Notes: generated from the letters alone by a model not told the origin. A stretch of DNA of 64,000 nucleotides from Haliotis cracherodii (GCF_022045235.1 NW_027266264.1:86118001-86182000); one strand, 5' to 3'; shown: positions 1 through 48,656, numbered from the stretch's first letter. Made by a program: numbers and translations.

Positions 1-2685
1 GAGTTATTTGTTTGTGTATAGTGTGATATGTGAGTTATTATTGTGTATAGCATGATGTGTGAGTGAGTTATTTGTGAATAGCGTGATGTGTGAGTAAGTG
101 AGTTATTTGTTTGAGTATAGTGTGATATGTGAGTTATTTGTTTGAGTATAGTGTGATATGTGAGTTATTTGTTTGTGTATAGTGTGATATGTGAGTTATT
201 TGTTTGAGTATAGTGTGATGTGTGAGTTATTTGTTTGAGTATAGTGTGATATGTGAGTTATTTGTTTGAGTATAGTGTGATATGTGAGTTATTTGTTTGC
301 GTATAGTGTGATTTATTTGTTTGAGTATGGTGTGATATGTGAGTTATTTGTTTGAGTATAGTGTGATGTGTGAGTTATTTGTTTGAGTATAGTGTGATGT
401 GTGAGTTATTTGTTTGAGTATAGTGTGATATGTGAGTTATTTGTTTGTGTATAGTGTGATGTGTGAGTTATTTGTTTGTGTATAGTGTGATATGTGAGTT
501 ATTTGTTTGTGTATAGTGTGATGTGTGAGTTATTTGTTTGAGTATAGTGTGATATGTGAGTTATTTGTTTGTGTATAGTGTGATGTGTGAGTTATTTGTT
601 TGTGTATAGTGTGATATGTGAGTTATTTGTTTGTGTATAGTGTGATGTGTGAGTGAGTGAGTTATTTGTTTGTGTATAGTGTGATGTATGAGTTATTTGT
701 TTGTGTATAGCGTGATGTGTGAGTGAGTGAGTTATTTGTTTGTGTATAGTGTGATATGTGAGTGAGTGAGTTATTTGTTTGTGTATAGTGTGATGTGTGA
801 GTTATTTGTTTGTGTATAGTGTGATATGTGAGTTATTTGTTTGTGTATAGTGTGATGTGTGAGTGAGTGAGTTATTTGTTTGTGTATAGTGTGATGTATG
901 AGTTATTTGTTTGTGTATAGCGTGATGTGTGAGTGAGTGAGTTATTTGTTTGTGTATAGTGTGATGTATGAGTTATTTGTTTGTGTATAGCGTGATGTGT
1001 GAGTGAGTGAGTTATTTGTTTGTGTATAGCGTGATGTGTGAGTGAGTGAGTTATTTGTTTGTGTATAGTGTGATGTATGAGTTATTTGTTTGTGTATAGC
1101 CTGATGTGTGGGTGAGTGAGTTATTTGTTTGTGTATAGCGTGATGTGTGAGTGAGTGAGTTATTTGTTTGTGTATAGTGTGATGTATGAGTTATTTGTTT
1201 GTGTATAGCGTGATGTGTGAGTGAGTGAGTTATTTGTTTGTGTATAGCGTGATGTGTGAGTGAGTGAGTTATTTGTTTGTGTATAGCGTGATGTGTGAGT
1301 GAGTGAGTTATTTGTTTGTGTATAGTGTGATGTATGAGTTATTTGTTTGTGTATAGCGTGATGTGTGAGTGAGTGAGTTATTTGTTTGTGTATAGCATGA
1401 TGTGTGAGTGAGTGAGTTATTTGTTTGTGTATAGCGTGATGTGTGAGTGAGTGAGTTATTTGTTTGTGTATAGTGTGATGTATGAGTTATTTGTTTGTGT
1501 ATAGCGTGATGTGTGAGTGAGTGAGTTATTTTTTGTGTATAGCGTGATGTGTGAGTGAGTGAGTTATTTGTTTGTGTATAGTGTGATGTATGAGTTATTT
1601 GTTTGTGTATAGCCTGATGTGTGGGTGAGTGAGTCATTTGTTTGTGTATAGCGTGATGTGTGAGTGAGTGAGTTATTTGTTTGTGTATAGTGTGATGTAT
1701 GAGTTATTTGTTTGTGTATAGCCTGATGTGTGGGTGAGTGAGTTATTTGCTTGTGTATAGTGTGATGTATGAGTTATTTGTTTGTGTATAGCCTGATGTG
1801 TGGGTGAGTGAGTTATTTGTTTGTGTATAGTGTGATGTATAAGTTATTTGTTTGTGTATAGCCTGATGTGTGGGTGAGTGAGTTATTTGCTTGTGTTTAG
1901 CCTGATGTGTGGATGAGTGAGTCATTTGTTTGTGTATAGCGTGATATGTGAGTTATTTGTTTGTGTATAGCCTGATGTGTGGGTGAGTGAGTTATTTGCT
2001 TGTGTATAGCCTGATGTGTGGGTGAGTGAGTTATTTGCTTGTGTATAGTGTGATGTATGAGTTATTTGTTTGTGTATAGCGTGATGTGTGGGTGAGTGAG
2101 TTATTTGTTTGTGTATAGCCTGATGTGTGGGTGAGTGAGTTATTTGCTTGTGTATAGCCTGATGTGTGGGTGAGTGAGTCATTTGTTTGTGTATAGCGTG
2201 ATGTGTGGGTGAGTGAGTTATTTGCTTGTGTATAGCCTGATGTGTGGGTGAGTGAGTCATTTGTTTGTGTATAGCGTGATATGTGAGTCATTTGTTTGTG
2301 TATAGCCTGATGTGTGGGTGAGTGAGTTATTTGTTTGTGTATAGTGTGATGTATGAGTTATTTGTTTGTGTATAGCCTGATGTGTGGGTGAGTGAGTTAT
2401 TTGCTTGTGTATAGCCTGATGTGTGGGTGAGTGAGTTATTTGTTTGTGTATAGCCTGATGTGTGGGTGAGTGAGTTATTTGTTTGTGTATAGCCTGATGT
2501 GTGAGTGAGTGAGTTATTTGCTTGTGTATAGCCTGATGTGTGAGTGAGTGAGTTATTTGTTTTGTGTATAGCCTGATGTGTGGGTGAGTGAGTTATTTGC
2601 TTGTGTATAGCCTGATGTGTGGGTGAGTGAGTCATTTGTTTGTGTATACCCTGATGTGTGGGTGAGTGAGTTATTTGTTTGCGTT
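1..2685. repeat. Minisatellite array, 31-bp unit GAGTTATTTGTTTGTGTATAGTGTGATATGT with 39-bp (+GAGTGAGT) variants; intronic in the JmjC gene; continues beyond the left edge
   Basis: Directly visible tandem periodicity. The overlapping ORFs (THTSHYTQ.../HQAIHKQ...) are repeat translations. Confidence 0.97.
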
Positions 2686-3013
2686 TGGAGTGTCACTGGA
2701 GTGTGGTCAGCGAGTGATAGCACAGATATGGTGCAGACAGGCCAAGGATCACAACGAGAACGAAACTCAGACTTGAATCAATAGTTATTGCAAAAGTTTC
2801 TTTCAATATCAATAGTTATTGCAAAAGTGATTTCCAATAGTCACCCGTACTTTCAACACTGATTGGCCGATGTCCACCTGATCTGACCAATTGAAGGGTT
2901 GTCAGATCTGAACAGAGTCGTATCAACTGACAGCAAACATCTGATCTGGGTGCAGACATTTCAACTAATTCAAACCGTATCGTCATCCTGAAGTTGCCAC
3001 AGAAGCAACCTAC

Positions 3014-4049: not shown

Positions 4050-5575
4050 TTGTTTCACCCTGGTAACCTGTTCACCCAGTACCTTCCCCACCCTGTTAGC
4101 CCAGTACCTTCCCCACCCTGATCATCCAGTACCTTCCCCACCCTGGTCACCCAGTACCTTCTGCACCCTGATCACCCAGTACCTTCCCCACCCTGATCAC
4201 CCAGTACCTTCCCCACCCTGGTCACCCAGTACCTTCCCCACCCTGATCACCCAGTACCTTCCCCACCCTGATCACCCAGTACCTTCCCCACCCTGGTCAC
4301 CCAGTACCTTCTGCACCCTGATCACCCAGTACCTTCCCCACCCTGATCACCCAGTACCTTCCCCACCCTGGTCACCCAGTACCTTCCCCACCCTGATCAC
4401 CCAGTACCTTCCCCACCCTGATCACCCAGTACCTTCTGCACCCTGATCACCCAGTACCTTCCCCACCCTGATCACCCAGTACCTTCCCCACCCTGGTCAC
4501 CCAGTACCTTCCCCACCCTGATCACCCAGTACCTTCCCCACCCTGATCACCCAGTACCTTCACCACCCTGGTCATCCAGTACCTTCCCCACCCTGGTCAC
4601 CCAGTACCTTCACCACCCTGATCATCCAGTACCTTCACCACCCTGATCACCCAGTACCTTCACCACCCTGATCACCCAGTACCTTCCCCACCCTGATCAC
4701 CCAGTACCTTCCCCACCCTGATCACCCAGTACCTTCACCACCCTGATCACCCAGTACCTTCCCCACCCTGATCACCCAGTACCTTCACCACCCTGATCAT
4801 CCAGTACCTTCCCCACCCTGATCATCCAGTACCTTCCCCACCCTGGTCACCCAGTACCTTCCCCACCCTGATCACCCAGTACCTACCCCACCCTGATCAC
4901 CCAGTACCTTCACCACCCTGATCACCCAGTACCTACCCCACCCTGGTCACCCAGTACTTACTCCATCCTGGTCACCCAGTACCCATCCCACCCTGTTAAC
5001 CCAGTACCTTCCCCACCCTGGCCACCCAGTACCTACCCCACCCTGGTCACCCAGTACTTACTCCATCCTGGTCACCCAGTACCCATCCCACCCTGTTAAC
5101 CCAGTACCTTCCCCACCCTGGTCACCCAGTACTTACCCCACCGTGGTCACCCAGTACCTACCCCACCCTGATCACCCAGTACCTACCCCATCCTGGTCAC
5201 CGCGGTCGCCCAGTACCCACCTTGGTCACCCAGCACCCACCCCACCCTGGTCACCCAGTACCTTCCCCACCCTGATCACCCAGTACCTTCCCCACCCTGA
5301 TCACCCAGTACCTTCACCACCCTGATCACCCAGCACCCACCCCACCCTCGTCACCCAGGACCCACCCCACCCTGGTCACCCGGTACCTACCCCACCCTGA
5401 TCACCCAGGACCTACCCAACCCATCCCACCCTAGTCACCCTGTACCTACCCCACCCTGGTCACACGGTACCTACCCCACCCTGGTCACATGGTACCTACC
5501 CTGGTCACCCAGGACCCACCCCACCCTGGTCACCCGGTACCTAGCCCACCCTGATCACCCAGTAACCACTCCACC
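4050..5575. repeat. Minisatellite, 25-bp unit CCCTGATCACCCAGTACCTTCCCCA, degenerating rightwards; intronic
   Basis: Visible tandem periodicity of 25 bp. Confidence 0.96.
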
Positions 5576-5711
5576 CTGCCATTCTTAGTTCTGCTCAGAG
5601 AGAAGATTCATGTGATCCTGCCTTGGTCAGAGTCATGGCCTATGTAAACAGCCACATCCAGACAATACCAAGTCACAACATTCTACATCATCACTGCAGA
5701 ACACATGCCCC

Positions 5712-20196: not shown

Positions 20197-21014
20197 TTGA
20201 ATTAGGAAAATGATGTTTTATACCACAGTGAATTAGGGATATGATGTTTTATACCATATTGAATTATGATATGCTGTTTTGCTGTCTTCTGAAAAACAAT
20301 CTATCTGTCTGATTAGCCAGTTGCCATCTTGTAAAAACCCGTACAGGATGGCTACAGATTCCTTTACATCATAATGTTTGAACTCACATCGCTTGTTTGT
20401 CTCGGCACATTCAACTCAGGTCACACTTTGAGTTATATGTACCATACTAATAGTCTGATTACAAATGGATGGAATTGTCAAACACTCAAATAATTTGTTA
20501 CTGAAAATATGTCTTTGTTGTTTGTGAACTGATAAATTTGTTCGTGTACACCCCTGGCATAGTGTATTATTGCACAAGCCCAGTCAGGTGGTAAGATCCT
20601 GTATGAATCCACAAGTTCAGTGAGTTTTTTGTTGCTTCTATCAGCAGACGCTGAATATGATATTTTAAGGTCTGAATAGAGTCAGTTGTAATCAAACATA
20701 ATGACATCACAGCCCTAGAAACTAACTGTTTTCGTCTACTGGTCCATATTATAATAACGTATTGCAAAACCATTAAAAATGGCAAATATCTAATAGTCTT
20801 TACCTCACCCGCTAGGCCGTTTGGCAAGGACCTTAGGATTTTTGTCAGTTTCTAACCTTGTGTCATGGTGTTCACGATGGCCAGTCATCTTGTATCAGTT
20901 TTGAGAAGGCAGCAACCAGTCTGATATCTAGATTTTATTATGAATAATGATAGTTGACAGTCCATGGGTGCTTATAGTTGTGACTTATTTTGCAGATGAC
21001 GAAGATGAACTAGA

Positions 21015-24000
21015 ATGATGAATGGTGAAGCTGGGTCTTCGGGTTACTCTGGGGCCAGCCAGGCACAACACAGCAGTGCTCTCCCTTCTCCTACAGATGG
21101 CAGCACCGCAGATGTTAATGGGTGTACAAAGGAAGACAGACCAGATCAGCTTATGTTCAAACAGTGCCAGGAATCTGTGAACAATGTTGTAAAACATGAT
21201 GGAGCTGTGTTCACTGGACCGTCTCCTCCCTTGATCTGTAATGGTGGTACTCGGTGTCAAGACCACAGTGATGCAAAGTCTCCTGACAAAAGGGTACGAC
21301 AGCTTTCTGCTGTCTGTAGAAGCCATGATGTGGTAGTGGATGGTGTAAATCCATCAGATAAAGATGAACAGCAATCAAGGGAAGTTGTACAGAAAGTAGC
21401 TTCAGATGACACTGGCGGTACGACACATGTATCGGTTAAGGGTCAGAAAACATTTGTCAAAAGTGAAAGTGAAAAAGACACAATAGACTCAAACCAGACT
21501 GTCTGTGAGTCTCTGACACTTCCAGAAGGCAGGAGTGAAACATTATTAAATGTAAGTGATAAAAGTATGGAAATGGATGTGATTAACAATGGAAGTAAGA
21601 TTGAGTCTGAAGACACACCAATGGAGGTTGATAGAGAAAATGTAGAACTAGAAGGTGAAACAGTGTCAAGTATTGGCAGCTCACAAGACCCGGAGGACAC
21701 CAGCTGGAGTGGAATGGCAGACCAAGAGAGTGGGCCTGACAGTGATGCAGAACTAAGAATTGAGATCAGTGATGTCCGGACTGTCAACTTTGATGAGGAA
21801 GTTGATCTAGATTCAAGTGATCCCCTCGCAATAATTGATCTTGAAAACTCCGAAGGCCTGTCCAGGGGTAACAACTCCCAAGAAGATTTCACCAGCCCCA
21901 TCACAGGAGACACATCACAAGCTTTTGAAGAGGAAGGGGATTCTTCACCACAGAATGGTGGCAATATGGAAGATGGTGAACGTCAAGCCAGCCCACATGG
22001 CCCCACTGCAGGAGAAGCATCACAAGTTAATCAAGAGGAAGGGGATTCTCCACCACAGAATGGTGGCAATATGGAAGATGGTGAACGTCAAGCCAGGTCA
22101 AATGGCACCACGGCAGGAGAAACATCACAAGTTAATCAAGAGGAAGGGGACTCTTCACAACAGAATGGTGGCAATATGGAAGATGGTGAACGTCAAGCCA
22201 GCCCACATGGCCCCACGGCAGGAGAAGCATCACAAGTTAATACAGAGGAAGAAGAATCTTCACCGAAGCATGATGGCAATATGGAAGACGGTGAAGACCA
22301 AGCCAGCCCACATGGCCCCACAGTGGGAGTGAATGATAGATACACACTCTGTGAGAGTTCAGAGAATGGTCATGAGGAGAGGCCTTATTTGACAGGAAGT
22401 ACTGAGGGAGACTCGTTAGTCACCAAGAACCAGAATGGTGAGAGCCCCAGCACTGAGACCCAGACCCAAGAAGCTGATATCCTGCATGATCTATACCAAC
22501 AAACGTCCTCTCTACATGACCCAGAGCTGAACACACTGAAAGCATCAGATGCTGTGAAAAAAGCAGATATGGAGTCGGCACCAACAACAACTCAAGCAAG
22601 TACTCTTCTTTCCAACATCGCTGAAACAGTTCAGAAGATAAAATCCGAGCCACAGGATCAGGGGTATGAAGATGCTCAGACTTCTGTTCAAGAAGCCCGG
22701 GTTGGCAGCTGCAGCAAGACACAGGATATGACGGAGCGGTTCCGTCTGCCAGAGAGTATGTGTAGGACAGAACCAAGTACTGTATCTCATACCGTCATAA
22801 CACAGCCAGCATCCCTGATCACCACGCTGCCATCTCCGAAAGTCCTGCCTTATATGGCCATGAAGACCATGGTTACTCCGACACTGCCAAGTCGCGTGAT
22901 CAGCACCACATCTGTGGCGCCCATGTCACAGGCCCTTGTTGCCACGGGGATGGAAGGAGCTCAGACAAAAACTGTGGCATTACTAGTTCCCTTTAGAACA
23001 CAGGGGAATGACAGGGGTCCCATGTTTGCTTCACTTCCCACTGTCTCAAGCAAAGATACAAGTTCCGCCACTGCCCATTCGGAGATTGCAACAAGTGTGA
23101 CAGTCAGTGTTGCATCTTTGGAGCCTGTCATGTCAACAAATACTCTTGTGTCAAAAAGTGAGGAAGAAGTAGAAAGTTTTGAAAAGCTTGTTTATGATAA
23201 GTGCATGCAACATGAAGTGAAGTCTATTGAATTGGGAAAAGTGTCAGAATTTCTTCAGCGGAGAAATACCATGAAGTGTTATAAGGGGTCAAAACACCCT
23301 TCATTCGCGGACAAGAAACAACAGGGTTGTCTCGAGTGTGGTGACAGCTACGTACTGAAGACCAGTCTGGATCATCACATGACGCGCTGCAGCATTGTAA
23401 TCAAGTACCACTGTGACAAATGCAAAGGAGATTTTAAGTTTACGAATAAATGTCAGCTCTTGACTCATCTGAGACTGCATGTTGATGCATCAAGTACATC
23501 TAAAGTTCCCCCACCACTGAAAATAAACTCTGACAACTTATCTATTGTGACTCCGTCTGAAGAGGATCTTCAGAAGGCAACAGATAAGTTTAATGTTCCA
23601 CCAAAGGACCCTGACAAAGTTATGGTCCGCTGTTTGGAATGCAGGCAGGTTTTTGCAAATGAAAAAATCCTCAAGATCCATTTTGGTGCTAATGAATTAG
23701 TTTGCTCCTTTGCCTTCCAGTGTCTTGTTTGTTCTAAAGTCCTACCGAGACTCTGTGCCTTGAATGCCCACATGAAGATCCACTCAAACATGTCAGATTA
23801 TGTCTGTCCGGAATGTGGCAAGCCTTTTACAAACAAGAGTATGTCGTTTGTGAGGCATCTCAATGATGAATGCTACCACCAAAACAGAATCTTCCTTCTT
23901 CAATGCCCAGTGTGCAACATCCATCTGGAAAGTCTCCCCAAGATCAAGGAACATTGTATGAAAGAGCATGTAAAGAGCATTATCAAATGCAGTTCATGCA

Positions 24001-26876
24001 ATGAAGGGTTCCAAACGGCAGAACTTTTAAAGTTTCATATTCAAAATACCCATGGCCTTGAAGCTGTTCCTCAGCATGGCACCAGTAGGACCATGTGTGG
24101 ACTGTGCATGATCTTGCTCAAGTCAAGTTGTCTGTTGGAGAAGCACATGGATCACCACATGCAGGAGCTGAAGAAGAACGCAAAGTTCGGGTATCAGTGC
24201 AGCGACTGCTCCCCGAAGATGCCCGTTTTCACTTCAAAGCAGCTGCTCATTCAACACATGCAAGCAGTTCATAGGAAACTGCAGACAGTGTCCTGCAACT
24301 GCTGTGACCTGATGTTCAACTGTGTCCTTGCCTTGGAGAAACATCGTCAGAAGGTACATCCTGTACAGCCACACTCAGTGGGGCGCCATGAACACACCAA
24401 GGTCACCTACCAGTGTGGAAAATGTAAAGTGACCAACCCATCAGCTGCTGCTTTGAAGAAGCATGATTGCAAGCCACAGACTCAGTCCATACCCACGGTG
24501 CCCATCACGGTAGCAATGTGTGCTAGATGTAAGTATATCATGGCAAGTGATTACTCGAAACATAAGTGCCCAATGGCTACTAAGAGTCCAGACAAAGCCT
24601 CATCAGAGTCATCTGTGGGCCTTAAGGGTCCGTCCAAACCTTTCCCCGTGCAGCTGATCACAATCTCGAAACAGTCCCTCGTGCCTCTATCAGGGAACAC
24701 AATTCGCTTGAAGAAGGTTAAAGACTTCAGTTGCAAGCACTGCAAAAAGTGTTTAGATTCGGCAGGAGAATTAGCAGCTCATCTACAGAGCTGTGAAAGT
24801 AATCTTCCCATGAAGAGAACTTTCAAGGCATCTCTGAAAAGTAGAAGCACTCTCAGTAGTTCCCAATATGTGTTTTCGTGCAACTTGTGTCATGCCAAGT
24901 TTCCTTCAAAAGACAGGCTATTAATCCACATCCAAGATCACAGCCACAATGGTGATAAGATGTGTTCGGTCTGCAAGGTGATGGTCTTCAAGACGAGAGC
25001 CCAACTGGAAGGGCATACTCCGTCTTGTAAGGGGCCTGATCTCGTAGCTGATCCAGACACCAAGGTTCAGTGCCGAGTATGCTGCCAATTCATCCAGCGG
25101 GTTTACTTGAAGAATCATATCCTCACACACATTACCAAGGGGAAGATGATGTGTCGCCATTGTCAGAGGATGCAGTTTCAAAGTCGAGAGGAGTTCAAAT
25201 CTCATGAGTATGCATGTGGTTTCACGGACTACCCCTTAGAGCACAATTACTGCTATGTCTGTGCGATGACGTTTGACTACCTCGAGCAGCTCGTTGTCCA
25301 CCTTCAGCAGCATGTGAAGGAGGGAACACTCGTGTGCTGTAAGTGTCAGAGATCCAATTTCAGTACAAAGGAGGAGTTGGAGGGTCACCACGAGACGTGT
25401 GGACAAGACTACATGAACATCCTGCCCGGCGAGATGTGCAGCCTCTGTCGGTGTTCATTGCAATATCGGCCAACAAGCTACTTGCACCGCCACATAACGC
25501 AGCATGTTACAAAAGGAGCTCTCATTTGCTGCCGGTGTCAGAAGATGGGATGGGAGAGCTTTGGTGAAGTGAAATCCCATCAAATAGGCTGTGGAATGTT
25601 CACGGAGAACTCAGCACTTCCGTTCCACCAACAAGACAGGAAGTGTGTGTGCACCATCTGCAACAGGGACTGCAGCGACATGAACGCTTTAATAGCTCAC
25701 CTGAAACGGCATGTAGCTAATGGACAGCTTATTTGTACAAAATGTCAGAAGAGGGGATGGAAGAATGCATCCACGTTGATGAACCATGAAGTAACCTGTG
25801 GCGTCACTCTTGCTAAGTCAGTCAAAGCTGGTTACAAGACAATGGATCATGTGTGTGAGCACTGTGGTAAGATGTTCCGCAAGTTCAACCTCCTGACAGA
25901 ACATGTGAAGAAGGAACATGTCAGTTTTCCGTGCCACCTCTGTGGTCTGTCATATGACACCAAATCAGCCCTGGTGAGTCATGTCGGTGTGGTTCATGAC
26001 GGTAAACGGTCTCTTTTCTCTTGTAATATATGTAAAGAGAAGAAAATTGAAAAGAGTTTTGCAAGTCAGTCGGGTTTAGAGAAACACATGAGGAAAATGC
26101 ACAAACACCATCGTCGTCGCTCTGATAGCTCTGACATCAGTAATACAGAAAGGCACAGCTCTGGTACTTCATCCAAGCCATCGTCCCCCCCACCTGTGAA
26201 GCGACTTCGAGTTGAGGGGGACTTGCATTATACTTGTGCCAAATGTCCTGTCGTCACGGAGGATGCTGTTCACTTTGCTGAACACATCAAGGAGCACAAC
26301 TCTGACAATGCCAACCAGTGTCCTGACTGTGGCCTCTGTTTCGCAATCCTGGCCACTCTCAAGAAGCACCTGTTCCTTGTCCACAAGATCCGAGACTCGT
26401 ACAAGTACTTGCGAGACAAGGGCATGAAGACGGAAGAGGAGGAAATAATTTCTGACTCGGAGGAACTGTCCCCACCACCAATAAAGAAATCCAGATGGAC
26501 GAACCATTCTATGGCGACAAGGAAGTCTGACAATCCACTTGAATGTACTGTATGTTCAACAACGTTTGATACTGACAAGCAGTTGAAGACACACATGAGA
26601 ATACATGGCATGGCATTCATTTGCTCCAACAAGAGAGCTGGTTCCGTTAAGTCTAGTCCCAGTGGAGATGCATCGCCAAAAGTGGCCCTATCGCCAGCCA
26701 AGTCATCAATTAGTTCAAGTTCTGACAGAAAGATTTCAAATAATGCTGGGAGCCAGGATGTGGAGAAGAAGACAGAGACTGATTCGGAGACCTTGGCAGA
26801 CACTCCACTGCCTGAGGACACACAGCAGACGCAGAGGCTTGTCAAGGTCAAACAGGAACCCATGGATTATGATTGA
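21015..26876 (+). CDS. ZNF532: Zinc finger protein of the ZNF532/ZNF592/ZNF687 family, 1953 aa, single coding exon
   Basis: Uninterrupted ORF preceded by acceptor ttttgcag (ending 20995) and an in-frame TGA at 20997. Family hallmarks: CLECGDSY.L..SL..H..R.S..I...C..C......NKCQLL.H.R.H, CPECG....F..H...C.H, QCPDCGLCF.....L.KHLF.VHK and C-terminal finger ending HMRIHGMAFI. The exact vertebrate paralogue cannot be resolved by eye. Confidence 0.9.
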   Translation: MMNGEAGSSGYSGASQAQHSSALPSPTDGSTADVNGCTKEDRPDQLMFKQCQESVNNVVKHDGAVFTGPSPPLICNGGTRCQDHSDAKSPDKRVRQLSAVCRSHDVVVDGVNPSDKDEQQSREVVQKVASDDTGGTTHVSVKGQKTFVKSESEKDTIDSNQTVCESLTLPEGRSETLLNVSDKSMEMDVINNGSKIESEDTPMEVDRENVELEGETVSSIGSSQDPEDTSWSGMADQESGPDSDAELRIEISDVRTVNFDEEVDLDSSDPLAIIDLENSEGLSRGNNSQEDFTSPITGDTSQAFEEEGDSSPQNGGNMEDGERQASPHGPTAGEASQVNQEEGDSPPQNGGNMEDGERQARSNGTTAGETSQVNQEEGDSSQQNGGNMEDGERQASPHGPTAGEASQVNTEEEESSPKHDGNMEDGEDQASPHGPTVGVNDRYTLCESSENGHEERPYLTGSTEGDSLVTKNQNGESPSTETQTQEADILHDLYQQTSSLHDPELNTLKASDAVKKADMESAPTTTQASTLLSNIAETVQKIKSEPQDQGYEDAQTSVQEARVGSCSKTQDMTERFRLPESMCRTEPSTVSHTVITQPASLITTLPSPKVLPYMAMKTMVTPTLPSRVISTTSVAPMSQALVATGMEGAQTKTVALLVPFRTQGNDRGPMFASLPTVSSKDTSSATAHSEIATSVTVSVASLEPVMSTNTLVSKSEEEVESFEKLVYDKCMQHEVKSIELGKVSEFLQRRNTMKCYKGSKHPSFADKKQQGCLECGDSYVLKTSLDHHMTRCSIVIKYHCDKCKGDFKFTNKCQLLTHLRLHVDASSTSKVPPPLKINSDNLSIVTPSEEDLQKATDKFNVPPKDPDKVMVRCLECRQVFANEKILKIHFGANELVCSFAFQCLVCSKVLPRLCALNAHMKIHSNMSDYVCPECGKPFTNKSMSFVRHLNDECYHQNRIFLLQCPVCNIHLESLPKIKEHCMKEHVKSIIKCSSCNEGFQTAELLKFHIQNTHGLEAVPQHGTSRTMCGLCMILLKSSCLLEKHMDHHMQELKKNAKFGYQCSDCSPKMPVFTSKQLLIQHMQAVHRKLQTVSCNCCDLMFNCVLALEKHRQKVHPVQPHSVGRHEHTKVTYQCGKCKVTNPSAAALKKHDCKPQTQSIPTVPITVAMCARCKYIMASDYSKHKCPMATKSPDKASSESSVGLKGPSKPFPVQLITISKQSLVPLSGNTIRLKKVKDFSCKHCKKCLDSAGELAAHLQSCESNLPMKRTFKASLKSRSTLSSSQYVFSCNLCHAKFPSKDRLLIHIQDHSHNGDKMCSVCKVMVFKTRAQLEGHTPSCKGPDLVADPDTKVQCRVCCQFIQRVYLKNHILTHITKGKMMCRHCQRMQFQSREEFKSHEYACGFTDYPLEHNYCYVCAMTFDYLEQLVVHLQQHVKEGTLVCCKCQRSNFSTKEELEGHHETCGQDYMNILPGEMCSLCRCSLQYRPTSYLHRHITQHVTKGALICCRCQKMGWESFGEVKSHQIGCGMFTENSALPFHQQDRKCVCTICNRDCSDMNALIAHLKRHVANGQLICTKCQKRGWKNASTLMNHEVTCGVTLAKSVKAGYKTMDHVCEHCGKMFRKFNLLTEHVKKEHVSFPCHLCGLSYDTKSALVSHVGVVHDGKRSLFSCNICKEKKIEKSFASQSGLEKHMRKMHKHHRRRSDSSDISNTERHSSGTSSKPSSPPPVKRLRVEGDLHYTCAKCPVVTEDAVHFAEHIKEHNSDNANQCPDCGLCFAILATLKKHLFLVHKIRDSYKYLRDKGMKTEEEEIISDSEELSPPPIKKSRWTNHSMATRKSDNPLECTVCSTTFDTDKQLKTHMRIHGMAFICSNKRAGSVKSSPSGDASPKVALSPAKSSISSSSDRKISNNAGSQDVEKKTETDSETLADTPLPEDTQQTQRLVKVKQEPMDYD
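21902..22326 (+). repeat. Coding tandem repeat, 105-bp (35-aa) unit x~4 in the acidic N-terminal disordered region
   Basis: CAGAATGGTGGCAATATGGAAG at 21951, 22056 and 22161, with a variant at ~22269; protein unit EEGDS..QNGGNMEDGERQA. Confidence 0.93.
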
Positions 26877-35097: not shown

Positions 35098-36464
35098 AAA
35101 ACTGCGTCAACTCGTACAAGTCAAATGGTGTGTATTGAACCTAACGTTAGGAAAATGTAACCACTTAGTTTGAACGCAAATACGCGCCTGCCTTCCTGGT
35201 GAATTATGTCAACGTGTACGATTTCATTGGATGACGTTGTATCTATGCACACAAATATAGGTCGAAAATGTACAATGTTCTGTTTTCAGATCATACACAT
35301 ATTATGTAAAAACCTAAGCCATTATCAATATGAGTTTTAGCCCAATATCGTATTATTTGCTTAGAGGAATGGAAAATAGTTTTAAAGAAGATACTATGTT
35401 TTGAATGCGGGATCGACTTGAATGTAAAGACGAAGAACGTAATCATCATTGAACTAAATGTCCGAATTGATGTCCTTGCAATCTTAACATTATGTTGAAA
35501 AGCCTGTGCTTAAGATCAGGTAAAATAGTGAAACAAGCCTGATGACATTTACTGGCTTAGATCAAGAACTCAAACGTTCAAGCCAAACAACAAAAATTGT
35601 GATTGTATTTTCTTGACGACTATCCGCGGGAATAGTTGTTACAGTGAGCATGAAATGTTGCGAAAGACATTTTTATTATTGTGATATATTTTGTACACAA
35701 AGTATTTTATTATCAAAACGTTGATAATTTATTGGATTGTTGAAATTGAGTTGAGTCAGTAATGTAAATAACCTTTATAAAAAAAATGTTCATCTGCAGC
35801 AGAGACCAAATAAATTAGGATAGATTTTGACTGTTATTTACAATTACAAAATGAAAAATTGGCACCAGGCTATTTTAATTTCACCTTTGTGGTCCCTGAA
35901 GTCCCTTTCTTAAATAAATCATGACATAGCAGTAACAGAAAATTTATAAAGTGAAACTCGAGTCAATCAATGAAAGTCTATACCTGTATTATTTTATCTT
36001 TGTGTTTTAATTATTATAAGGATGTAGTACATTGGTTGAAGGGCCAGTTACCAACGGTTCAGAGTGTTTTGAAATCATGCATGAAATCATTTTCAAGTGT
36101 GACATCACACCTTTTAATTCATGAACGATTTGATTCTCAAATAATAGAAATAATAGAGCTCCGCACAGGGAAGCCAACACCCTAAGAGCTGCTCAGAATA
36201 ATTGGCTTGGGTCATGTTTTTGTTGTAGGCAAATTAATGAGAAAGCTTGTGTGGTATTTGTATGGATGAGTTGCGCGATACTAATTGCCAGCTGGATTGG
36301 ATGAGAAGCCAGTGTTTATCAAAGCCTAAATTACATTATAAATGCCATGGTCATATGAAGCCAATCACGTTGCAGAACACTCTTTTACTCAGAGGTCCTA
36401 GCAGCCAGCTTAGTACCTCCGCCACATCATTACATCTTACACAGTCCATTCAAGATATTACATG

Positions 36465-36651
36465 GCAGACACAATTTTATGGATAACAACTTCTTTAATA
36501 CCGACATTTCGGTATAGATCCTTATACCGTTGTCAAGCCAGGTATAAGTATCTATACCAAAACATGGGCATTACAGTATTAAAGAAGTTGTTATCCATAA
36601 AATTGTGTCTACCTTGTCATCCGTCAACTTCTAAGTAATGCCTATCAAACA
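36465..36651. mobile_element. Inverted-repeat Penelope-like-end element with hammerhead-like core (U3-A8 variant); flanked by 17-bp direct repeat ATTCAAGATATTACATG
   Basis: Direct repeats at 36448-36464 and 36652-36668; inverted arms ACAATTTTATGGATAACAACTTCTTTAATAC / GTATTAAAGAAGTTGTTATCCATAAAATTGT. Related copy at ~17620-17760. Confidence 0.62.
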
Positions 36652-39955: not shown

Positions 39956-40228
39956 TATTTTAGACAGATGAAAAACACTTATGTCTCCTGTACACCAGGA
40001 GACACGATTTGAGTCATCTTTATAACACCTGTTTAGTTTTATTAAGACAACTTATATGTCCATAAGAGCCTTTATCTGAAGCCCAGTGTTTTTTTGCCTG
40101 ATATATAGACCATGTAGATTAGTTCTAGGAAGATCAGAGCTGTGATGGTAAATGTTTATTTTCATTTTACAGATGACTGTGGTGCCAAGGTAACCTGACC
40201 AGGACATATCCAGAGTCTGGTGTTTGTC

Positions 40229-43200
40229 ATGATGTGTGAAGTACGGACATCTATGGAAGTTGATGAGACAGCTGTGTCCAAGACATGCAATATGGTCATC
40301 AAGACGGAACAGATCGCTCCTGATGAGGCCAGGGGATCACGTACACATCGTAGTAATGAGATGGATACTGAAGATGATGTCACAGGGCCATATACTGATC
40401 GAACTGATCATGAAGTCGCGGCAGAGTCACATTGTAGTGATTACAGAGAAAGTGCACACCCTTCAGAAACACATGATAAACATATCGTGGAAGTCCTTCC
40501 AGTTGAACAGTCGAGAAGAAAACAATCAATCAGAAAGTCTTCAGTGTGTATGTATACAAATCAATTAGACAAAAGAGCCAAGGAGCCAATGAGGGAACGA
40601 GACAGTGAGCCTGGGTGTTGGAGGAAGATGAGCACTGGTATGCCTGTGATCAAGGAGGAAGAATGTGATCCAGTTGATGCCAACAAACTTGTATATGAGG
40701 AGCATTGGGGGACAGAGTGTGAAGATCAGTTTGCTGTCTACTTGAATGATAACGCAGACATGAAGTTTGACAACAAGACGGATTCACCTGTGTCTTGGAA
40801 TACTGGAGAATACCAGGTTGATTCACCAATGGTGTATGTTCCTTACCAGTGTGAAGAGGACCAGATGGAGGGTGTCACTGAGCAGGTGAAGGTGGAACCA
40901 GTGGATGTACTGTCAGAAGCAGCAGCAGCAGCAGCAGCAGGTGGAGGACACAGGACCCTGACAACACCACCGCTACGTTCTATGTCCAATCCTACACCTG
41001 TATTTCATGTCAATAGCTCCAGAAATGATCAATTGAAACCAGGGGTCATCTTTCAAAATGTCTCGGATCAAGTTAAAAGTGGAGAATTTGATGTGTCAGG
41101 TGATTCTGAATCAAATGTTGAGGATGAGTCTCCGTGCGGGACAAGGGAGAGCCCTGTTGACCAAGAAATCCAACTTAACCAAGCAAGTGATTCTGATTCA
41201 GCTGACATGGCAATTCCATGTAAAGAATGTGAGATGGAGTACTCCTCTCGTGCTGAGTTTGAGAAGCATCAGGAATTGTACAGTGGGGCCAGTGTCAAGT
41301 ACTATTGTCCAACCTGTAAGCAGCAGTTGATGTCCAAGTGCCAGTTACTTCAGCATTCACACAGACATGGAGGCATCAGCGGGAAGTTATGTCGTGACAG
41401 CCACTTCTCATCATCCAAACCAGCATATGGGGGAAAGCGTAATGTAAGAACATGCCGCTACCTTGAAAAACTGAAAACACAATTGCACTTGAGACATGGT
41501 GAGATTCTTGTGTGTTTGGTGTGCAAGAAAAGGTTTGAAGGAAAAGCCATGTTGGTGAAACACTTGGGTGAAGATGTGGACTGCAATCCAGACTTTAGTT
41601 GCCTGGAGTGCCACGCAGTATTAGCTTCCGAGTGTGCGCTTGTCACCCATCTTACGCTCCACAAGCAGCCTGAACAAGGTGATGAGTATTTCATGTGCCC
41701 AGAGTGTGGCAAGTTCTTCTTCACATCTTGGGATGCGTATCTTAGACATGTGAGAAACGAGTGTCTTCACTTCTGCCGAGTCAGTGTCTTCACGTGTAGG
41801 GTGTGTGGAAATAAGCTGAAGAGCTTTACTCAATTCTTAGCCCATTTTGAATCCCACTTTGTCAACTTTCCATACTGTAAAGAGTGTTGCTTCAGAAGCA
41901 ACTACAAAGGCAAGCATTACCCTGTGTCAAAACATTCCACTGTGACAAATTGTGTTGTCTGTAATGAAAGACTTGAGACGGATTGTCAAAGAGGAAAACA
42001 TGTGAAGAAGCATGGGAATGAAGTGAAGGACTCTGCTGTCTCTGAATACAAATGTCCTGACTGTGCAGAGGAGACACTGTTTGAAACCAAGAACATCTTG
42101 TGGTATCACAGAGTGGTCAGTCACAAGGTAGTGGAACAGTTCTCTTGTAATCACTGTGACTGTGTTCTGTCCTCCCGACACATGCTACAAGCACATATCA
42201 GGGCAGTGCACGTCAAACAGGTGTGGCTTGCTGGAGATAGACCAAAAACGTGCAAGGGAAAAACCTTAAAGGCTATCACTTCAACTATTGGGAAACACGC
42301 TGCTGAATCTGATGCAAAAGACGTCAATCCTGAAAGAGATCCCCAAGGTCACCTTGAACTTGAAGGGCAAGAAAATGTAAAACTTTGGAATGAAACAAAC
42401 CAGACATCAAAAATGAAAACAAATACTGTGAATTCTTCCGCTCCTTCACCGAAAACTCTTCCAGCTATTTTAGACAGGAAAAGGAAACACAGGCCAACAT
42501 CATTAAGCAGCAAGAACAGGAAAGCAGTCACAACTAAGATCTGGAATACAGTTACAACTAAGATTGGGAATGCAGTCACAACTAAGATCGGGAATGCAAT
42601 CATAACTAAGATCGGGAATGCAGTCACAACTAAGATCGGGAATGCGGTCACAACTAAGAATGGGAATGCGGTCACAACTAAGCCTCCACTGAAGTCATAT
42701 GGGGAGCCGGCTGTTGAAATAGATGTAGCAGATGAAGCACTGGCTCAAGAAGACAATACTTCAGCGGGTTGTACACAAAGTCAACCTCAAGGTCCTCTTG
42801 AAGGAGAACAGAAGCTTCCAGTTAAGAAGAAAAGAAAACCAAGGAAACAGGTAATTAAAATAGCTCCTCTGCTCCCTGAGGTGGAGACAGAAGACCCTCT
42901 GATTTATCCTCAAGGTCACCTTGGAGAAGACCAGAGTGTAACAAGGGAGATAACTGGACCTGTGATTCCAGTCAGCCATGGGATAATCCAAGTGAGACAG
43001 AAGATGGATTTGGTTATGAACACTGATCCATATCAACCTGAGCATAAAAATAGAAGTAAAGCGTTTGTGGAGAAAGACATTGGTGAACCTGCTGCTGAAA
43101 AGAATTTGGCCACCCCTGTGATTGTAAATGAAATCGAGGGAGATGTTCACTTAGGATGTGAATCAGAAGATGTCTCAAAGGCTCCACTCATGATGAAGCA

Positions 43201-46183
43201 GAAGAAAGAAAACCATCAAAATCGTCATAAGTGCCTTGGTTGTATGATCCGATTTGAATCAGAAGATGATTTAAAGGCTCACATATCTCATCACTCGTAT
43301 GAGAAAGTCCCACTGATCAGGTGCAGTACTTGCAACATGGTGCTCCCAACAAGTTGCTCTCTACAAGCTCATTATAAAATACATTCCGGTAACAGGAGCA
43401 TGACACCATCAGCTTGCCCTGAATGTGGTCTTGTATTTACAAATGACATGAGCTCATTTAGAAGGCATGTCGACAGAGAATGTCTGCACTTTAGCCGTGA
43501 GAGTTACATTCCATGTTGTCATTGTGATGAGTTGATTGAGATTTTTAAGTTTCTGGTTCATATCGTTAATATACATGCGCCAATCTGGACTAGAATTTCT
43601 AACAGCTGTCCTATTTGTGGGCCTGATGTCCCCATCACACCACATCATCAATATACCAAGCATTTTCTCCGACTGCAGATGGAAGATGTGGTGTTCAGAT
43701 TCAGCTGTGCAGTCTGCAAACAGTATAACAATGAAAGACTCTTTTCAGAGTTTGACAGTCTGTGGGACCACATGTGTTCATCACACATGAGAATTAGAAC
43801 TTTCTCGTGCACTTTCTGCAACCTGAAGTTCCCAGATGCACTGAGTCGGAATGCCCATGTTACCTCCTGCCACTATGACACTCCAAAACAGCTACAAAAA
43901 CAAGGGAAGGATGCTCGCCCCAAAGATGCAGAGACAAGCAAATCTGAAACTGTGTTGCAACCAATCAATGAAGTGTCCACAAGCTTTAAGGAAGGAGCAG
44001 ACGTCATGTTGAAAGAGGGAAACACCACGTCTAGCCCTGCACCATCTGTGTGTGAGGGTGATGCTGGAGGTACCTCCATCACCAGCAGACCCAAGATGTC
44101 CCCATCTGTCATTGTTCTCAGAAGACAAAACCTTGATGGTCATACTGGCAGCAGATCTGAACAACTGCTATTGTCTGCATCAGTTGTTACTTCTTCCAAA
44201 CCGATTTCTGCGTCACCTCCCAGCGAGCACAAACAGCTACCAGCGTCAGTCATTGCCAAGGCAACGGAACAACCTGCTGCACATCTAAGCTTCTATCCAA
44301 AATTAGCGTCTGTTCAAAAACCATCAGCTGCAGCAGGAAATAATTCTTGTTCCATCATATATACCCATCAGCAACCAGCTGAATCTGTACCCATCCCGGA
44401 ACCCATTGCATTTGTCACTCCAGACCTACCTCTTGAAGCAGCTGGTAGTTCTTCCACTAACAAACCCCAGCAACCACAAGTAACTTCAGAATCTGTCAGA
44501 AGTCTTAACTCTGATGGACACAGTGCTGAAGCTTGTGAAGTCAGCAAGGAGAATATGGAGAAACTTTGCAACAAGTTGTCTTCAGAAAGAGCATCAGTAC
44601 ATCACTTTTTGGATTCAAATCCATTTGAACCTGTGAGTCCGGAAGATGGCCCACCAGCAACTTCAGAATCTGTGACAAGTCTTAACTCTGATGGACACAG
44701 TGTTGAAGCTTGTGAAGTCAGCAAGGAGAGTGTCTTGTGCAGACACTGTGGAGAAGACATCCCTGTTGCTGAGCTGAAGGCACACATAACACACCAGCAT
44801 CCAGTGAACAACAAATTGTGTGATCATATTCATTTCTCTCAGGATTTGCTCCAGGTGGAAGTCCTGAATATTTATGATGGAAAGTATTTCTTCTGCCCTT
44901 ACTTAGAAAAGGGGAAATATTGCACCAAGTTGTCTTCAGAAAGAGCATTAATGAAGCACTTACTGGACACACATCCATCTGAATCGGTGAGTCTGGAAGA
45001 TAGCCCATTATTTGTGAAGAAGTTCCACACAGGCTACAGAAGGCTGAGGACAATGAAGGATAAAGGCAACATGGCCAAACAACACCAAGAGTCTACAGTG
45101 ACTCTTTCTATGAACAGTGTGGACACTCTACTTCAACAAGAGATTGTCTTGGTAAGGAACAAGGATCAAACTGATGGCTCCATGTCTGAAACCACAGCGT
45201 GCCCTGGTGATGCAATACTCACTGCAGGAACAGGATTTACTGGTTTATTGAAGCATCAGCCTGATCAAACACTGCAGGATCAGCCCCATCAAGCACTGCA
45301 GCAGATTATAAAGATTGGGTCTACAGGGATGCCATGTCCTCCTTTGTACAGAGCAGCTCCTGGCCCGAGTGTATTGTCCTGTCCCTTCTGTGGGCTGACC
45401 TGTAAGACAGAGTTCCATGTATTGAATCACGTCAGTGAATGTCACTGTGGTTATCTTCCAGTCTTGATCTGTCCTTTCTGTGCAGAGAAAAACTTTGAAA
45501 CAGAATTTTCGACTCTGAAGGAACTTCGTCTTCATCTGTTTGATCTCTCTGAAGTGCCTCAACACACACAACCTGAGAAGGATGGCAATGCGACTCATCT
45601 GGAAGAAGGTAAGAATACTGACCACAGTGAAACAGTAAGAGAGGTATACACAAAAGGTGGAAATAAAACACATGGCAGAATGAGGTGTGTAAGGGTGTTG
45701 AAAAGAAAATCAAAGGTGATTTATTTCCCATGTGACCGTTGTGAAAGGGTCTTTGCCAGTTGGAATTGTCTTGAGAAGCACAGGTGGATGCTGCACCACT
45801 GTGATAGCCCTGACATTATCTATGTTTCTGAGAACTCTAGCTCTGATAGTTCTGACAGTCCCTTTAACGTACCATCGTCCTTCCCACCTGTGAAGAGACT
45901 TCGAGTTGAAGGGGACTTGCATTATACTTGTGCCAAATGTCCTGTCGTCACGAAGGATGCTGTTCACTTTGCTGAACACATCAAGGAGCACAACTCTGAC
46001 AATGCCAACCAGTGTCCTGACTGTGGCCTCTGTTTCGAAATCCTGGCCACTCTCAAGAAGCACCTGTTTCTGGTCCACAAGATCCGAGACTCGTACAAGT
46101 ACTTGCAAGACAGGGGCATGAAGACGGAAGAGGAGGAACTAGACTTTGATTCTGACAATGACACTTTTCATCCGATGCAGTGA
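40229..46183 (+). CDS. Second ZNF532/592/687-family zinc finger protein (~1984 aa from the first ATG), single coding exon, divergent tandem paralogue
   Basis: Long ORF (track start is GTG 40220; first ATG is 40229) after acceptor ttttacag at 40172. Family motifs KCQLL.H, CPECG...RHV..ECLHF.R (twice) and QCPDCGLCF..LATLKKHLFLVHK. It lacks the terminal HGMAF finger. Confidence 0.88.
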   Translation: MMCEVRTSMEVDETAVSKTCNMVIKTEQIAPDEARGSRTHRSNEMDTEDDVTGPYTDRTDHEVAAESHCSDYRESAHPSETHDKHIVEVLPVEQSRRKQSIRKSSVCMYTNQLDKRAKEPMRERDSEPGCWRKMSTGMPVIKEEECDPVDANKLVYEEHWGTECEDQFAVYLNDNADMKFDNKTDSPVSWNTGEYQVDSPMVYVPYQCEEDQMEGVTEQVKVEPVDVLSEAAAAAAAGGGHRTLTTPPLRSMSNPTPVFHVNSSRNDQLKPGVIFQNVSDQVKSGEFDVSGDSESNVEDESPCGTRESPVDQEIQLNQASDSDSADMAIPCKECEMEYSSRAEFEKHQELYSGASVKYYCPTCKQQLMSKCQLLQHSHRHGGISGKLCRDSHFSSSKPAYGGKRNVRTCRYLEKLKTQLHLRHGEILVCLVCKKRFEGKAMLVKHLGEDVDCNPDFSCLECHAVLASECALVTHLTLHKQPEQGDEYFMCPECGKFFFTSWDAYLRHVRNECLHFCRVSVFTCRVCGNKLKSFTQFLAHFESHFVNFPYCKECCFRSNYKGKHYPVSKHSTVTNCVVCNERLETDCQRGKHVKKHGNEVKDSAVSEYKCPDCAEETLFETKNILWYHRVVSHKVVEQFSCNHCDCVLSSRHMLQAHIRAVHVKQVWLAGDRPKTCKGKTLKAITSTIGKHAAESDAKDVNPERDPQGHLELEGQENVKLWNETNQTSKMKTNTVNSSAPSPKTLPAILDRKRKHRPTSLSSKNRKAVTTKIWNTVTTKIGNAVTTKIGNAIITKIGNAVTTKIGNAVTTKNGNAVTTKPPLKSYGEPAVEIDVADEALAQEDNTSAGCTQSQPQGPLEGEQKLPVKKKRKPRKQVIKIAPLLPEVETEDPLIYPQGHLGEDQSVTREITGPVIPVSHGIIQVRQKMDLVMNTDPYQPEHKNRSKAFVEKDIGEPAAEKNLATPVIVNEIEGDVHLGCESEDVSKAPLMMKQKKENHQNRHKCLGCMIRFESEDDLKAHISHHSYEKVPLIRCSTCNMVLPTSCSLQAHYKIHSGNRSMTPSACPECGLVFTNDMSSFRRHVDRECLHFSRESYIPCCHCDELIEIFKFLVHIVNIHAPIWTRISNSCPICGPDVPITPHHQYTKHFLRLQMEDVVFRFSCAVCKQYNNERLFSEFDSLWDHMCSSHMRIRTFSCTFCNLKFPDALSRNAHVTSCHYDTPKQLQKQGKDARPKDAETSKSETVLQPINEVSTSFKEGADVMLKEGNTTSSPAPSVCEGDAGGTSITSRPKMSPSVIVLRRQNLDGHTGSRSEQLLLSASVVTSSKPISASPPSEHKQLPASVIAKATEQPAAHLSFYPKLASVQKPSAAAGNNSCSIIYTHQQPAESVPIPEPIAFVTPDLPLEAAGSSSTNKPQQPQVTSESVRSLNSDGHSAEACEVSKENMEKLCNKLSSERASVHHFLDSNPFEPVSPEDGPPATSESVTSLNSDGHSVEACEVSKESVLCRHCGEDIPVAELKAHITHQHPVNNKLCDHIHFSQDLLQVEVLNIYDGKYFFCPYLEKGKYCTKLSSERALMKHLLDTHPSESVSLEDSPLFVKKFHTGYRRLRTMKDKGNMAKQHQESTVTLSMNSVDTLLQQEIVLVRNKDQTDGSMSETTACPGDAILTAGTGFTGLLKHQPDQTLQDQPHQALQQIIKIGSTGMPCPPLYRAAPGPSVLSCPFCGLTCKTEFHVLNHVSECHCGYLPVLICPFCAEKNFETEFSTLKELRLHLFDLSEVPQHTQPEKDGNATHLEEGKNTDHSETVREVYTKGGNKTHGRMRCVRVLKRKSKVIYFPCDRCERVFASWNCLEKHRWMLHHCDSPDIIYVSENSSSDSSDSPFNVPSSFPPVKRLRVEGDLHYTCAKCPVVTKDAVHFAEHIKEHNSDNANQCPDCGLCFEILATLKKHLFLVHKIRDSYKYLQDRGMKTEEEELDFDSDNDTFHPMQ
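42523..42682 (+). repeat. Coding tandem repeat, 24-bp unit (AVTTKIGN) x~7
   Basis: GCAGTCACAACTAAGATCGGGAAT periodicity inside the ORF. Confidence 0.92.
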
Positions 46184-47390: not shown

Positions 47391-48237
47391 TAGCTGCCGT
47401 CACCATATCTCTGTGGGTCACAGGAGGACGTTGCTGCCGTCACCATATCTCTGTGGGTGACACGAGGACGTAGCTACCGTCACCATATCTCTGTGGGTGA
47501 CACGAGGACGTAGCTGCCGTCACCATATCTCTGTGGGTGACACGAGGACGTAGCTGCCGTCACCATATCTCTGTGGGTCACAGGAGGACGTAGCTGCCGT
47601 CACCATATCTCTGTGGGTGACACGAGGATGTAGCTGCCGTCACCATATCTCTGTGGGCGACACGAGGAAGTAGCTGCCGTCACCATATCTCTGTGGGTGA
47701 CACCAGGACGTAGCTGCCGTCACCATATCTCTGTGGGTCACAGGAGGACGTAGCTGCCGTCACCATATCTCTGTGGGTGACACGAGGACGTAGCTGCTGT
47801 CACCATATCTCTGTGGGTGACACGAGGACGTAGCTGCCGTCACCATATCTCTGTGGGTGACACGAGGACGTAGCTGCCGTCACCATATCTATGTGGGTGA
47901 CACGAGGACGTAGCTGCCGTCACCATATCTCCGTGGGTGACACGAGGATGTAGTTGCCGTCACCATATCTCTGTGGGTCACAGGAGGACGGAGCTGCCGT
48001 CACCATATCTCTGTGGGTCACAGGAGGACGTAGCTGCCGTCACCACATCTCTGTGGGTCACAGGAGGACATTGCTGCCGTCACCACATCTCTCTAGGTCA
48101 CAGGAGGACATTGCTGCCGTCACCACATCTCTCTAGGTCACAGGAGGACGTAGCTGCCGTCACCACATCTCTGTGGGTCACAGGAGGACATAGCTGCCGT
48201 CACCATATCTCTCTGGGTGACAGGAGGACATAGCTGC
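47391..48237. repeat. Minisatellite, 40-bp unit TAGCTGCCGTCACCATATCTCTGTGGGTSACASGAGGACG (~21 copies)
   Basis: Exact 40-bp periodicity visible. Confidence 0.97.
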
Positions 48238-48656
48238 ATTAACCGTTGCTATGTGGTTGACACTGTGTCATTGTACCTCAGTGATGTGTGTCGTGATAGA
48301 TGGAGATACTGTCAAGACACTGGTTGTGGTATAAATCAAGTATTTGAGCAGCAATGAAATAGCTGGAATATTGCTCATTGAGGCGACAAACAATATTCAC
48401 TCACTCAACATGGGTACTGAAGCTCAACTATGTCCATTAAATGTAAACAGAAGCAGTCATTTATGATTGTTTTATTTTGTACTACTTTTATGGATGGGTG
48501 ACACAAAAATCGTATTGCAATATACATTGGGGCTCAAATTATATATATTTGAACTCTTTAAATAGTATTTTGTACCATTTTTGTAATATTTCATGTCCAA
48601 ATAAAAGTACTTTCTTCCAAGTTATGTAACTTAATGGCCACTGACACTTTCAAAGG

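What the first reader, a model, noticed from the sequence alone, without database searches (positions are those of the whole stretch)
26178..26444. 267-bp gene-conversion tract between otherwise highly diverged ZNF paralogues
Seen: 26178-26444 and 45872-46138 align without gaps, with about 10 mismatches by my count (~96%), including synonymous sites. The rest of the two ORFs shares only finger-level protein motifs. The tract covers exactly the PPVKRLR basic (NLS-like) motif plus two C2H2 fingers. A short upstream match (CTCTGATAGYTCTGACA, 26120 vs 45841) suggests a slightly longer tract with an indel. The second gene stops 14 codons later and lacks the HGMAF finger. Inference: recent ectopic conversion or segment capture homogenising a functional module.
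Basis: partly seen in the sequence, partly recalled or inferred. Interest (0 to 1): 0.7.

Follow-up and report, generated by a model that had tools for sequence, protein, structure and literature searches.

The report
Abalone zinc-finger paralogues share converted tract
Two neighbouring, long-diverged zinc-finger genes of an abalone share one nearly identical 270-base stretch, also seen in related species, likely because it was copied between the genes more than once; this is a clean new example of a known process.

Summary
26178-26447 and 45872-46141 align gap-free and in frame with 11 differences in 270 bases (dS 0.07). The other shared zinc-finger block of the two genes is 27% identical and saturated at silent sites. 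The genome is an abalone close to Haliotis rufescens. Gene 1 is its ZNF532/592/687-type gene; gene 2 is a far-diverged paralogue 19.7 kb downstream. Mis-assembly is unlikely: H. rufescens proteins and contigs of five other coded organisms carry the tract, with the same 5' edge where contigs resolve it. So it is not private to this genome. It was homogenised after the split from H. rubra/H. asinina and before the window/rufescens group radiated. Weak older homology upstream favours conversion over insertion. One double site suggests later patchy exchange: both window copies read one state, and three other organisms appear to read the other in both copies. This rests on bubble-collapsed contigs. 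The tract is the best-conserved part of gene 1, but no selection for homogenisation was shown. Known kind (Capitella Dlx, BMP8A/B), new member.

The parts
21009..26876 (+). Gene 1 open frame (1955 aa stop to stop; first Met at 21015), ZNF532/592/687-type
   Evidence: PF25412 32.6 bits, cut-off 27; 97% to H. rufescens, 80% to H. rubra 'ZNF532-like', 75% to H. asinina
40199..46183 (+). Gene 2 open frame (1994 aa; first Met at 40229), far-diverged paralogue lacking the last finger
   Evidence: (95% to two H. rufescens proteins)
26178..26447 (+). Tract, copy in gene 1: basic motif, two C2H2 fingers (second is PF16622-like), acidic end
   Evidence: top-scoring 90-aa window of gene 1 (aa 700-1870 scanned) against 3 of 3 distant relatives
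45872..46141 (+). Tract, copy in gene 2 (likely the original recipient)
   Evidence: GC3 55 of 90 against 780 of 1904 in the rest of gene 2
26016..26177 (+). Finger and Ser/Asp linker upstream of the tract in gene 1
45725..45871 (+). Older homologous flank in gene 2 (finger and linker, pS about 0.6); a 12-base length difference lies just before the tract's 5' edge
26399..26400 (+). Diagnostic double site in gene 1 (codons 74-75 of the tract), G,T in the window
46093..46094 (+). Same double site in gene 2, also G,T in the window; A,G in 6 of 6 runs of organisms C, D, E
46142..46183 (+). Short diverged tail and stop codon of gene 2
   Evidence: 18 of 42 bases match gene 1 in register; 40 of 1942 in-frame places do as well or better
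26541..26618 (+). Last finger and HGMAF motif of gene 1, absent from gene 2
23328..24398 (+). Core finger block of gene 1
41219..42250 (+). Core block copy A in gene 2 (27% identity, silent sites saturated)
43229..43924 (+). Core block copy B in gene 2 (28% identity)

Best explanation
Two tandem, long-diverged ZNF532-family genes share a 96% identical 270-base tract that was likely overwritten by interlocus gene conversion more than once, first probably from gene 1 into gene 2. Steps: (1, shown) the genes share old homology, saturated in the core blocks and intermediate in the finger just upstream of the tract. (2, inferred) the whole tract was homogenised after the split from the rubra/asinina lineage and before the window/rufescens group radiated. 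(3, inferred, weaker) shorter patches were exchanged later in single lineages. (4, inferred) conversion stays confined because this is the most constrained part of the protein and the only block still similar enough to pair; indels and divergence at the edges would stop it spreading. No selection for identity between the copies needs to be assumed.
For: Silent sites are homogenised only here: pS 0.07 in the tract, 0.60 in the upstream finger, 0.93 and 0.85 in the core blocks. The trees conflict by region. In the core block a clade of gene 2 with window/rufescens gene 1 is rejected (p-AU 0.002; path about 3.7 changes per site). In the tract all 7 abalone rows form one starred clade, with paths of 0.04-0.07. 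At the 7 columns where window and rufescens gene 1 agree against both rubra and asinina, all three gene 2 rows side with the former at 5 and none with the latter at any. Gene 2 differs by 4-6 of 90 residues from window/rufescens gene 1 and by 9-14 from rubra/asinina gene 1. Upstream flank: 12 of 16 same-residue codons are identical against 7.0 expected (p 0.008), and the finger's best match in 4 of 4 gene 1 proteins is the finger before the tract, by small margins. Later exchange: both window copies read G,T at the double site and both rufescens gene 2 proteins have Asp where its gene 1 has Tyr. All 6 runs of C, D, E read A,G, including both unmerged variants in X9 and contigs joined to the gene 1 3' flank in X10 and X14. 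In X7 two contigs tied to the gene 2 flank differ at 45881, one carrying the gene 1 letter. The tract is the top 90-aa window against 3 of 3 distant relatives.
Against: The cross-species DNA comes from short-word assemblies that merge near-identical copies, so letters are often not tied to a copy; the two X9 variants could be alleles of gene 2. The tract protein tree does not group by species, and a clade of the four gene 1 rows is not rejected (p-AU 0.48; window/rufescens gene 1 plus gene 2 only 59/75). Site 26216/45910 stays paralogue-specific in all flank-tied contigs, and both window copies carry private changes, so exchange is rare. The 3' flank homology is weak and the 5' test rests on 31 codons. 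No gene 2 orthologue was found in rubra or asinina, so the state before homogenisation was not seen. Non-reciprocity cannot be shown.
Confidence: 0.68

Rival explanations
1. One event only: a single conversion, or a partial duplication or capture of gene 1's 3' segment into gene 2, before the group radiated, followed by independent divergence.
For: Same 5' edge in all organisms where contigs resolve it. Gene 2-specific states are shared across species (Lys28, 45910 A). Paralogue distance in the window (11 of 270) exceeds the orthologue distance to C in the flank (7 listed changes in 312 bases). Gene 2 holds other internal duplications.
Against: It needs parallel change at two adjacent sites in both copies; by my rough estimate from 2-3% flank divergence this is well under 1 in 100 (inference). 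The intermediate-age flank already implies an older layer.
Confidence: 0.2
2. Conversion is kept going by selection because both proteins need the same binding surface (shared partner or heterodimer), as speculated for BMP8A/B and TUBG1/2.
For: The tract is the family's best-conserved block, its edge is conserved, and human relatives sit in the Z3 module with ZMYND8 (PMC8246863 passages).
Against: Gene 2's tract differs from rufescens at 4-5 of 90 residues, like the rest of gene 2 (4-5%) and more than block B (1.7%). dN/dS between the copies is 0.48, not significantly below 1 (p 0.26). The window's gene 2 has Ala-to-Glu inside the second finger.
Confidence: 0.1
3. Assembly artefact, or purifying selection alone.
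For: Tandem repeats abound in the window; the tract is a conserved domain.
Against: Two H. rufescens proteins carry the same tract. The gene 2 5' junction is bridged by 31 or more letters each side in 7 of 8 runs laid. The copies differ at 11 sites. 79 of 83 same-residue codons are identical, which protein selection cannot give.
Confidence: 0.02

Closest known systems
Capitella teleta Dlxa/Dlxb homeobox conversion (PMC3199776; 12 of 15 passages on 'gene conversion' read)
   Same: Linked invertebrate transcription-factor paralogues; conversion confined to the most conserved domain (150-bp tract) while the rest is highly diverged.
   Different: There the genes are inverted and the tract reaches into an intron. 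Here they are in direct orientation 19.7 kb apart, the tract is inside one long open frame, and several related species could be compared.
Mammalian pairs BMP8A/B, DDX19A/B, TUBG1/2 (PMC2720389; abstract and Discussion read)
   Same: Two linked copies, mosaic homogenisation with conserved boundaries across species, raised GC used as support.
   Different: Those tracts cluster by species and show lower dN/dS. Here clustering by species is limited to single sites, no lower dN/dS was shown, and the background divergence is at saturation.
Hexapod engrailed/invected (seen only as cited in PMC3199776) and mammalian ZFX/ZFY finger-exon conversion (search listing only; details recalled)
   Same: Domain-limited conversion between old transcription-factor paralogues.
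   Different: Different families; ZFX/ZFY are gametologues, not tandem paralogues.
ZNF532/ZNF592/ZNF687 (Z3 module with ZMYND8; PMC8246863, 4 passages read)
   Same: Gene 1 has the family's Pfam domain and orthologues so named; the tract is the family's best-conserved block.
   Different: Gene 2 has two degenerate core blocks, unique sequence between them and the tract, and no last finger; its function is untested.

Membership tests
Domain-limited interlocus gene conversion | Mosaic similarity: short block far more alike than the rest, silent sites included | tested here: met
   pS 0.07 against 0.85-0.93
Domain-limited interlocus gene conversion | Phylogenetic conflict between tract and remainder | tested here: met
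   Core block rejects the tract-like grouping, p-AU 0.002; tract distances. The tract tree itself resolves this node weakly, 59/75
Domain-limited interlocus gene conversion | Tract replaces homologous sequence (flanks homologous) | tested here: met
   5' flank p 0.008 on 16 codons, 3' flank about 0.02; modest
Domain-limited interlocus gene conversion | Paralogues share lineage-specific changes (concerted evolution) | tested here: inconclusive
   One double site supports it but contigs are not phased; other sites stay paralogue-specific
Domain-limited interlocus gene conversion | Copy number stays two | tested here: inconclusive
   2 copies in G000; both genes on one H. rufescens chromosome-length contig, plus a 99% alike gene 2 on a 39.5-kb contig; gene 2 not found in rubra/asinina
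Domain-limited interlocus gene conversion | Raised GC at third positions | tested here: inconclusive
   Gene 2: 0.61 against 0.41, p 2e-4. Gene 1 against its finger region: 0.62 against 0.53, p 0.12. Residue make-up not corrected
Domain-limited interlocus gene conversion | Non-reciprocal transfer | not testable with these tools
   Needs pedigree or gamete data
ZNF532/592/687 (gene 1) | PF25412 domain, PF16622-like finger, orthologues named ZNF532-like | tested here: met
   PF25412 above cut-off; PF16622 26.8 against cut-off 27; names
   Neither found. It is a derived paralogue: block A's best non-self matches among 157 fetched proteins are the abalone gene 1 proteins
ZNF532/592/687 | Binding to ZMYND8 | not tested
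   No job run; no binding is claimed

The most novel reading that the evidence does not exclude
A 270-base island has stayed in concerted evolution since an ancient duplication while everything around it saturated, shrinking in steps. Selection keeps it alive, so that a fast-evolving, truncated paralogue keeps an up-to-date copy of the conserved Z3-type docking surface and acts as a competitor or retargeting subunit of gene 1.
Probability: 0.12. Interest if true: 0.6.

Novelty: new member of a known kind. Interest (0 to 1): 0.33.

Why it matters
It is an unusually sharp natural case: about 3.7 changes per site in one block and dS 0.07 in another, within one gene pair, in a genus with many sequenced species. 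That makes the question of why conversion persists in one domain (neutral self-maintenance or selection) testable with existing data. It also points to the two-finger block as the likely key surface of ZNF532-family proteins, and warns that short reads and markers in this tract will cross-map between the genes.

Tried and rejected
Gene 2 orthologues outside the window/rufescens cluster: none (1 of 3434 candidates passed; 0 of 7994 shorter candidates) or (next best 35-36%, vertebrate multi-finger proteins). This is inconclusive, because an orthologue above 50% could hide in the same cluster and word searches can miss diverged proteins. Remains of the HGMAF finger, or DNA homology downstream or upstream of the two genes: nothing beyond dispersed repeats. 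An argument from linker length was dropped: gene 2 matches window gene 1 in total spacing but rubra/asinina in part, depending on the alignment. Lys28 in gene 1 of C, D, E: all 7 runs of C-F read A at 26259/45953, but one X10 contig has single-copy depth there, so it was left unresolved. Depth sums (room for about 1 merged difference in X13, about 4 in X11, none in X15, 0-1 in X10) are only a hint; the tool warns that depth is no copy number. Expression: no RNA holder listed on record; four runs guessed to be RNA hold gene 2 contigs, which is not taken as evidence. No raw or long reads and no run of organism A were laid (8 of 21 listed runs laid). Solved structures: only generic C2H2 matches. 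Earlier scan findings: none near. An earlier count said 5 synonymous differences; the correct count is 4.

Full report
Observation. The two stretches align without gaps: 10 mismatches in 267 bases, 11 in 270. They sit in frame near the 3' ends of two long open frames on the + strand, gene 1 (21009-26876) and gene 2 (40199-46183). No other DNA match between the ORFs is better than E 0.10. The own genome gave 2 copies by DNA and 2 strong matches of 8 by protein. There are 4 synonymous and 7 nonsynonymous differences, dS 0.071 and dN 0.034.

The genes. Homologues are from Haliotis. Gene 1 is 97% identical to H. rufescens LOC124134174, 80% to H. rubra 'ZNF532-like' and 75% to an H. asinina protein, and passes PF25412. 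Gene 2 is 95% identical to two H. rufescens proteins. It holds two degenerate copies of gene 1's core finger block (27% and 28%), saturated at silent sites (pS 0.93 and 0.85). Among 157 fetched proteins, block A's best non-self matches are the four abalone gene 1 proteins, at near-equal scores of 108-114 bits. That suggests a split older than these species, or very fast change (inference). Gene 2 ends 14 codons after the tract and has no trace of gene 1's last finger.

Not an artefact. Both H. rufescens gene 2 proteins carry the tract with the same ends. Of 21 runs listed, 8 were laid, from coded organisms B, C, D, E, F. In 7 of 8 a contig bridges gene 2's 5' flank into the tract by 31 or more letters each side; X11 overlaps by 30. 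In X11 the tract is one 270-base contig starting at 45872. The gene 2 3' junction is bridged in X7 and X9.

Age. In the core block, a clade of gene 2 with window/rufescens gene 1 to the exclusion of rubra/asinina is rejected (p-AU 0.002; long branches are flagged there). In the tract all 7 abalone rows form one starred clade, but its inner order is weak (59/75) and a clade of the four gene 1 rows is not rejected (p-AU 0.48). Distances carry the point: gene 2 differs by 4-6 of 90 residues from window/rufescens gene 1 and by 9-14 from rubra/asinina gene 1. The window's gene 1 has two private changes (Arg79, Lys81) where gene 2 keeps the old residues. So the last full homogenisation likely fell after the rubra/asinina split and before the group radiated.

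Conversion or capture. The finger before the tract in gene 2 matches best the finger before the tract in 4 of 4 gene 1 proteins, by small margins (58/47, 63/47, 52/50, 52/48). Its pS is 0.60, and 12 of 16 same-residue codons are identical against 7.0 expected (p 0.008). The linker aligns colinearly with small indels, the last a 12-base length difference just before the 5' edge. The 3' tail matches at 18 of 42 in register, reached by 40 of 1942 in-frame places. This is modest support for a tract laid over older homology.

One event or several. At 26399-26400/46093-46094 both window copies read G,T, as do the surviving contigs of B and F. All 6 runs of C, D, E read A,G, including both unmerged 133-base variants in X9 and contigs joined to the gene 1 3' flank in X10 and X14. 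H. rufescens has Tyr in gene 1 and Asp in both gene 2 proteins; rubra and asinina have Asn. Other sites (26342, 26378) flip between runs of one organism, as merged differences should, while this one never does. A single event would need parallel change at both adjacent sites. X7 also shows two gene 2-tied contigs differing at 45881, one with the gene 1 letter. Against this: contigs are unphased, the X9 variants may be alleles, and 26216/45910 stays paralogue-specific in all flank-tied contigs. Exchange after the radiation is therefore likely but rare and patchy.

Why only here. The tract is the top-scoring 90-residue window of gene 1 (aa 700-1870 scanned) against 3 of 3 distant relatives. PMC3924837 (6 passages read) states that conversion needs highly similar sequence of typically a few hundred bases and stops when substitutions or large indels disrupt pairing. 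A constrained 270-base block can thus stay convertible while its flanks escape (inference). Selection for identity is not shown: gene 2's tract changes at 4-5 of 90 residues against rufescens, like the rest of the gene, and dN/dS of 0.48 is not significantly below 1. GC3 is high in gene 2's tract (0.61 against 0.41), fitting a gene 1 donor or biased conversion; in gene 1 it is not significantly above the finger region.

Comparison and novelty. The pattern matches Capitella Dlx (PMC3199776, passages) and three mammalian pairs (PMC2720389, abstract and Discussion). I found no paper on this pair: 'Haliotis' with 'ZNF532' gave 0; 'Haliotis' with 'concerted evolution' and 'gene conversion' gave 9, none on it by title and abstract start; none of the 20 listed of 44 contains ZNF687. 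The library lacks most subscription journals, and no supplements were read. Verdict: a real feature and a new member of a known kind, interest 0.33.

Noticed in passing
window 21895-22329: 105-base tandem repeat (about four units, 80-88% alike) inside gene 1's acidic N-terminal region; the H. rubra and H. asinina proteins are shorter here by eye.
   Followed up: partly
window 44474-45007: Internal duplications in gene 2: 44474-44552/44651-44729 (94%) and 44557-44653/44911-45007 (80%, a degenerate copy of a finger). H. rufescens has one more 59-aa unit.
   Followed up: partly
window 42512-42682: 24-base repeat (VTTKIGNA-like) in gene 2 whose copy number differs between the two H. rufescens proteins.
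   Followed up: no
window 46127, run X14: A contig of organism E carries 77 unrelated letters before 46127 and then continues into gene 2's 3' flank; a possible insertion or rearrangement in E's gene 2 tract, or a mis-join.
   Followed up: no
window 26469-26498: A second basic motif (PPPIKKSR) follows the tract in gene 1 and resembles the one at the tract's start; gene 2 lacks it.
   Followed up: no
window 1-2692, 4067-5578, 47391-48263, 58638-59167, 60556-62364, 62602-63644: Long tandem arrays; also an imperfect inverted repeat at 36457-36620 and a dispersed repeat upstream of both genes (16275-16436/36707-36876, 84%).
   Followed up: no
G000:C3:2.32-2.38 Mb, 8.66-9.23 Mb, 19.0-19.6 Mb; C78:28.2-28.4 Mb: Large tandem clusters of C2H2 zinc-finger genes, some with near-identical scores and frame lengths at about 5-kb spacing.
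   Followed up: no
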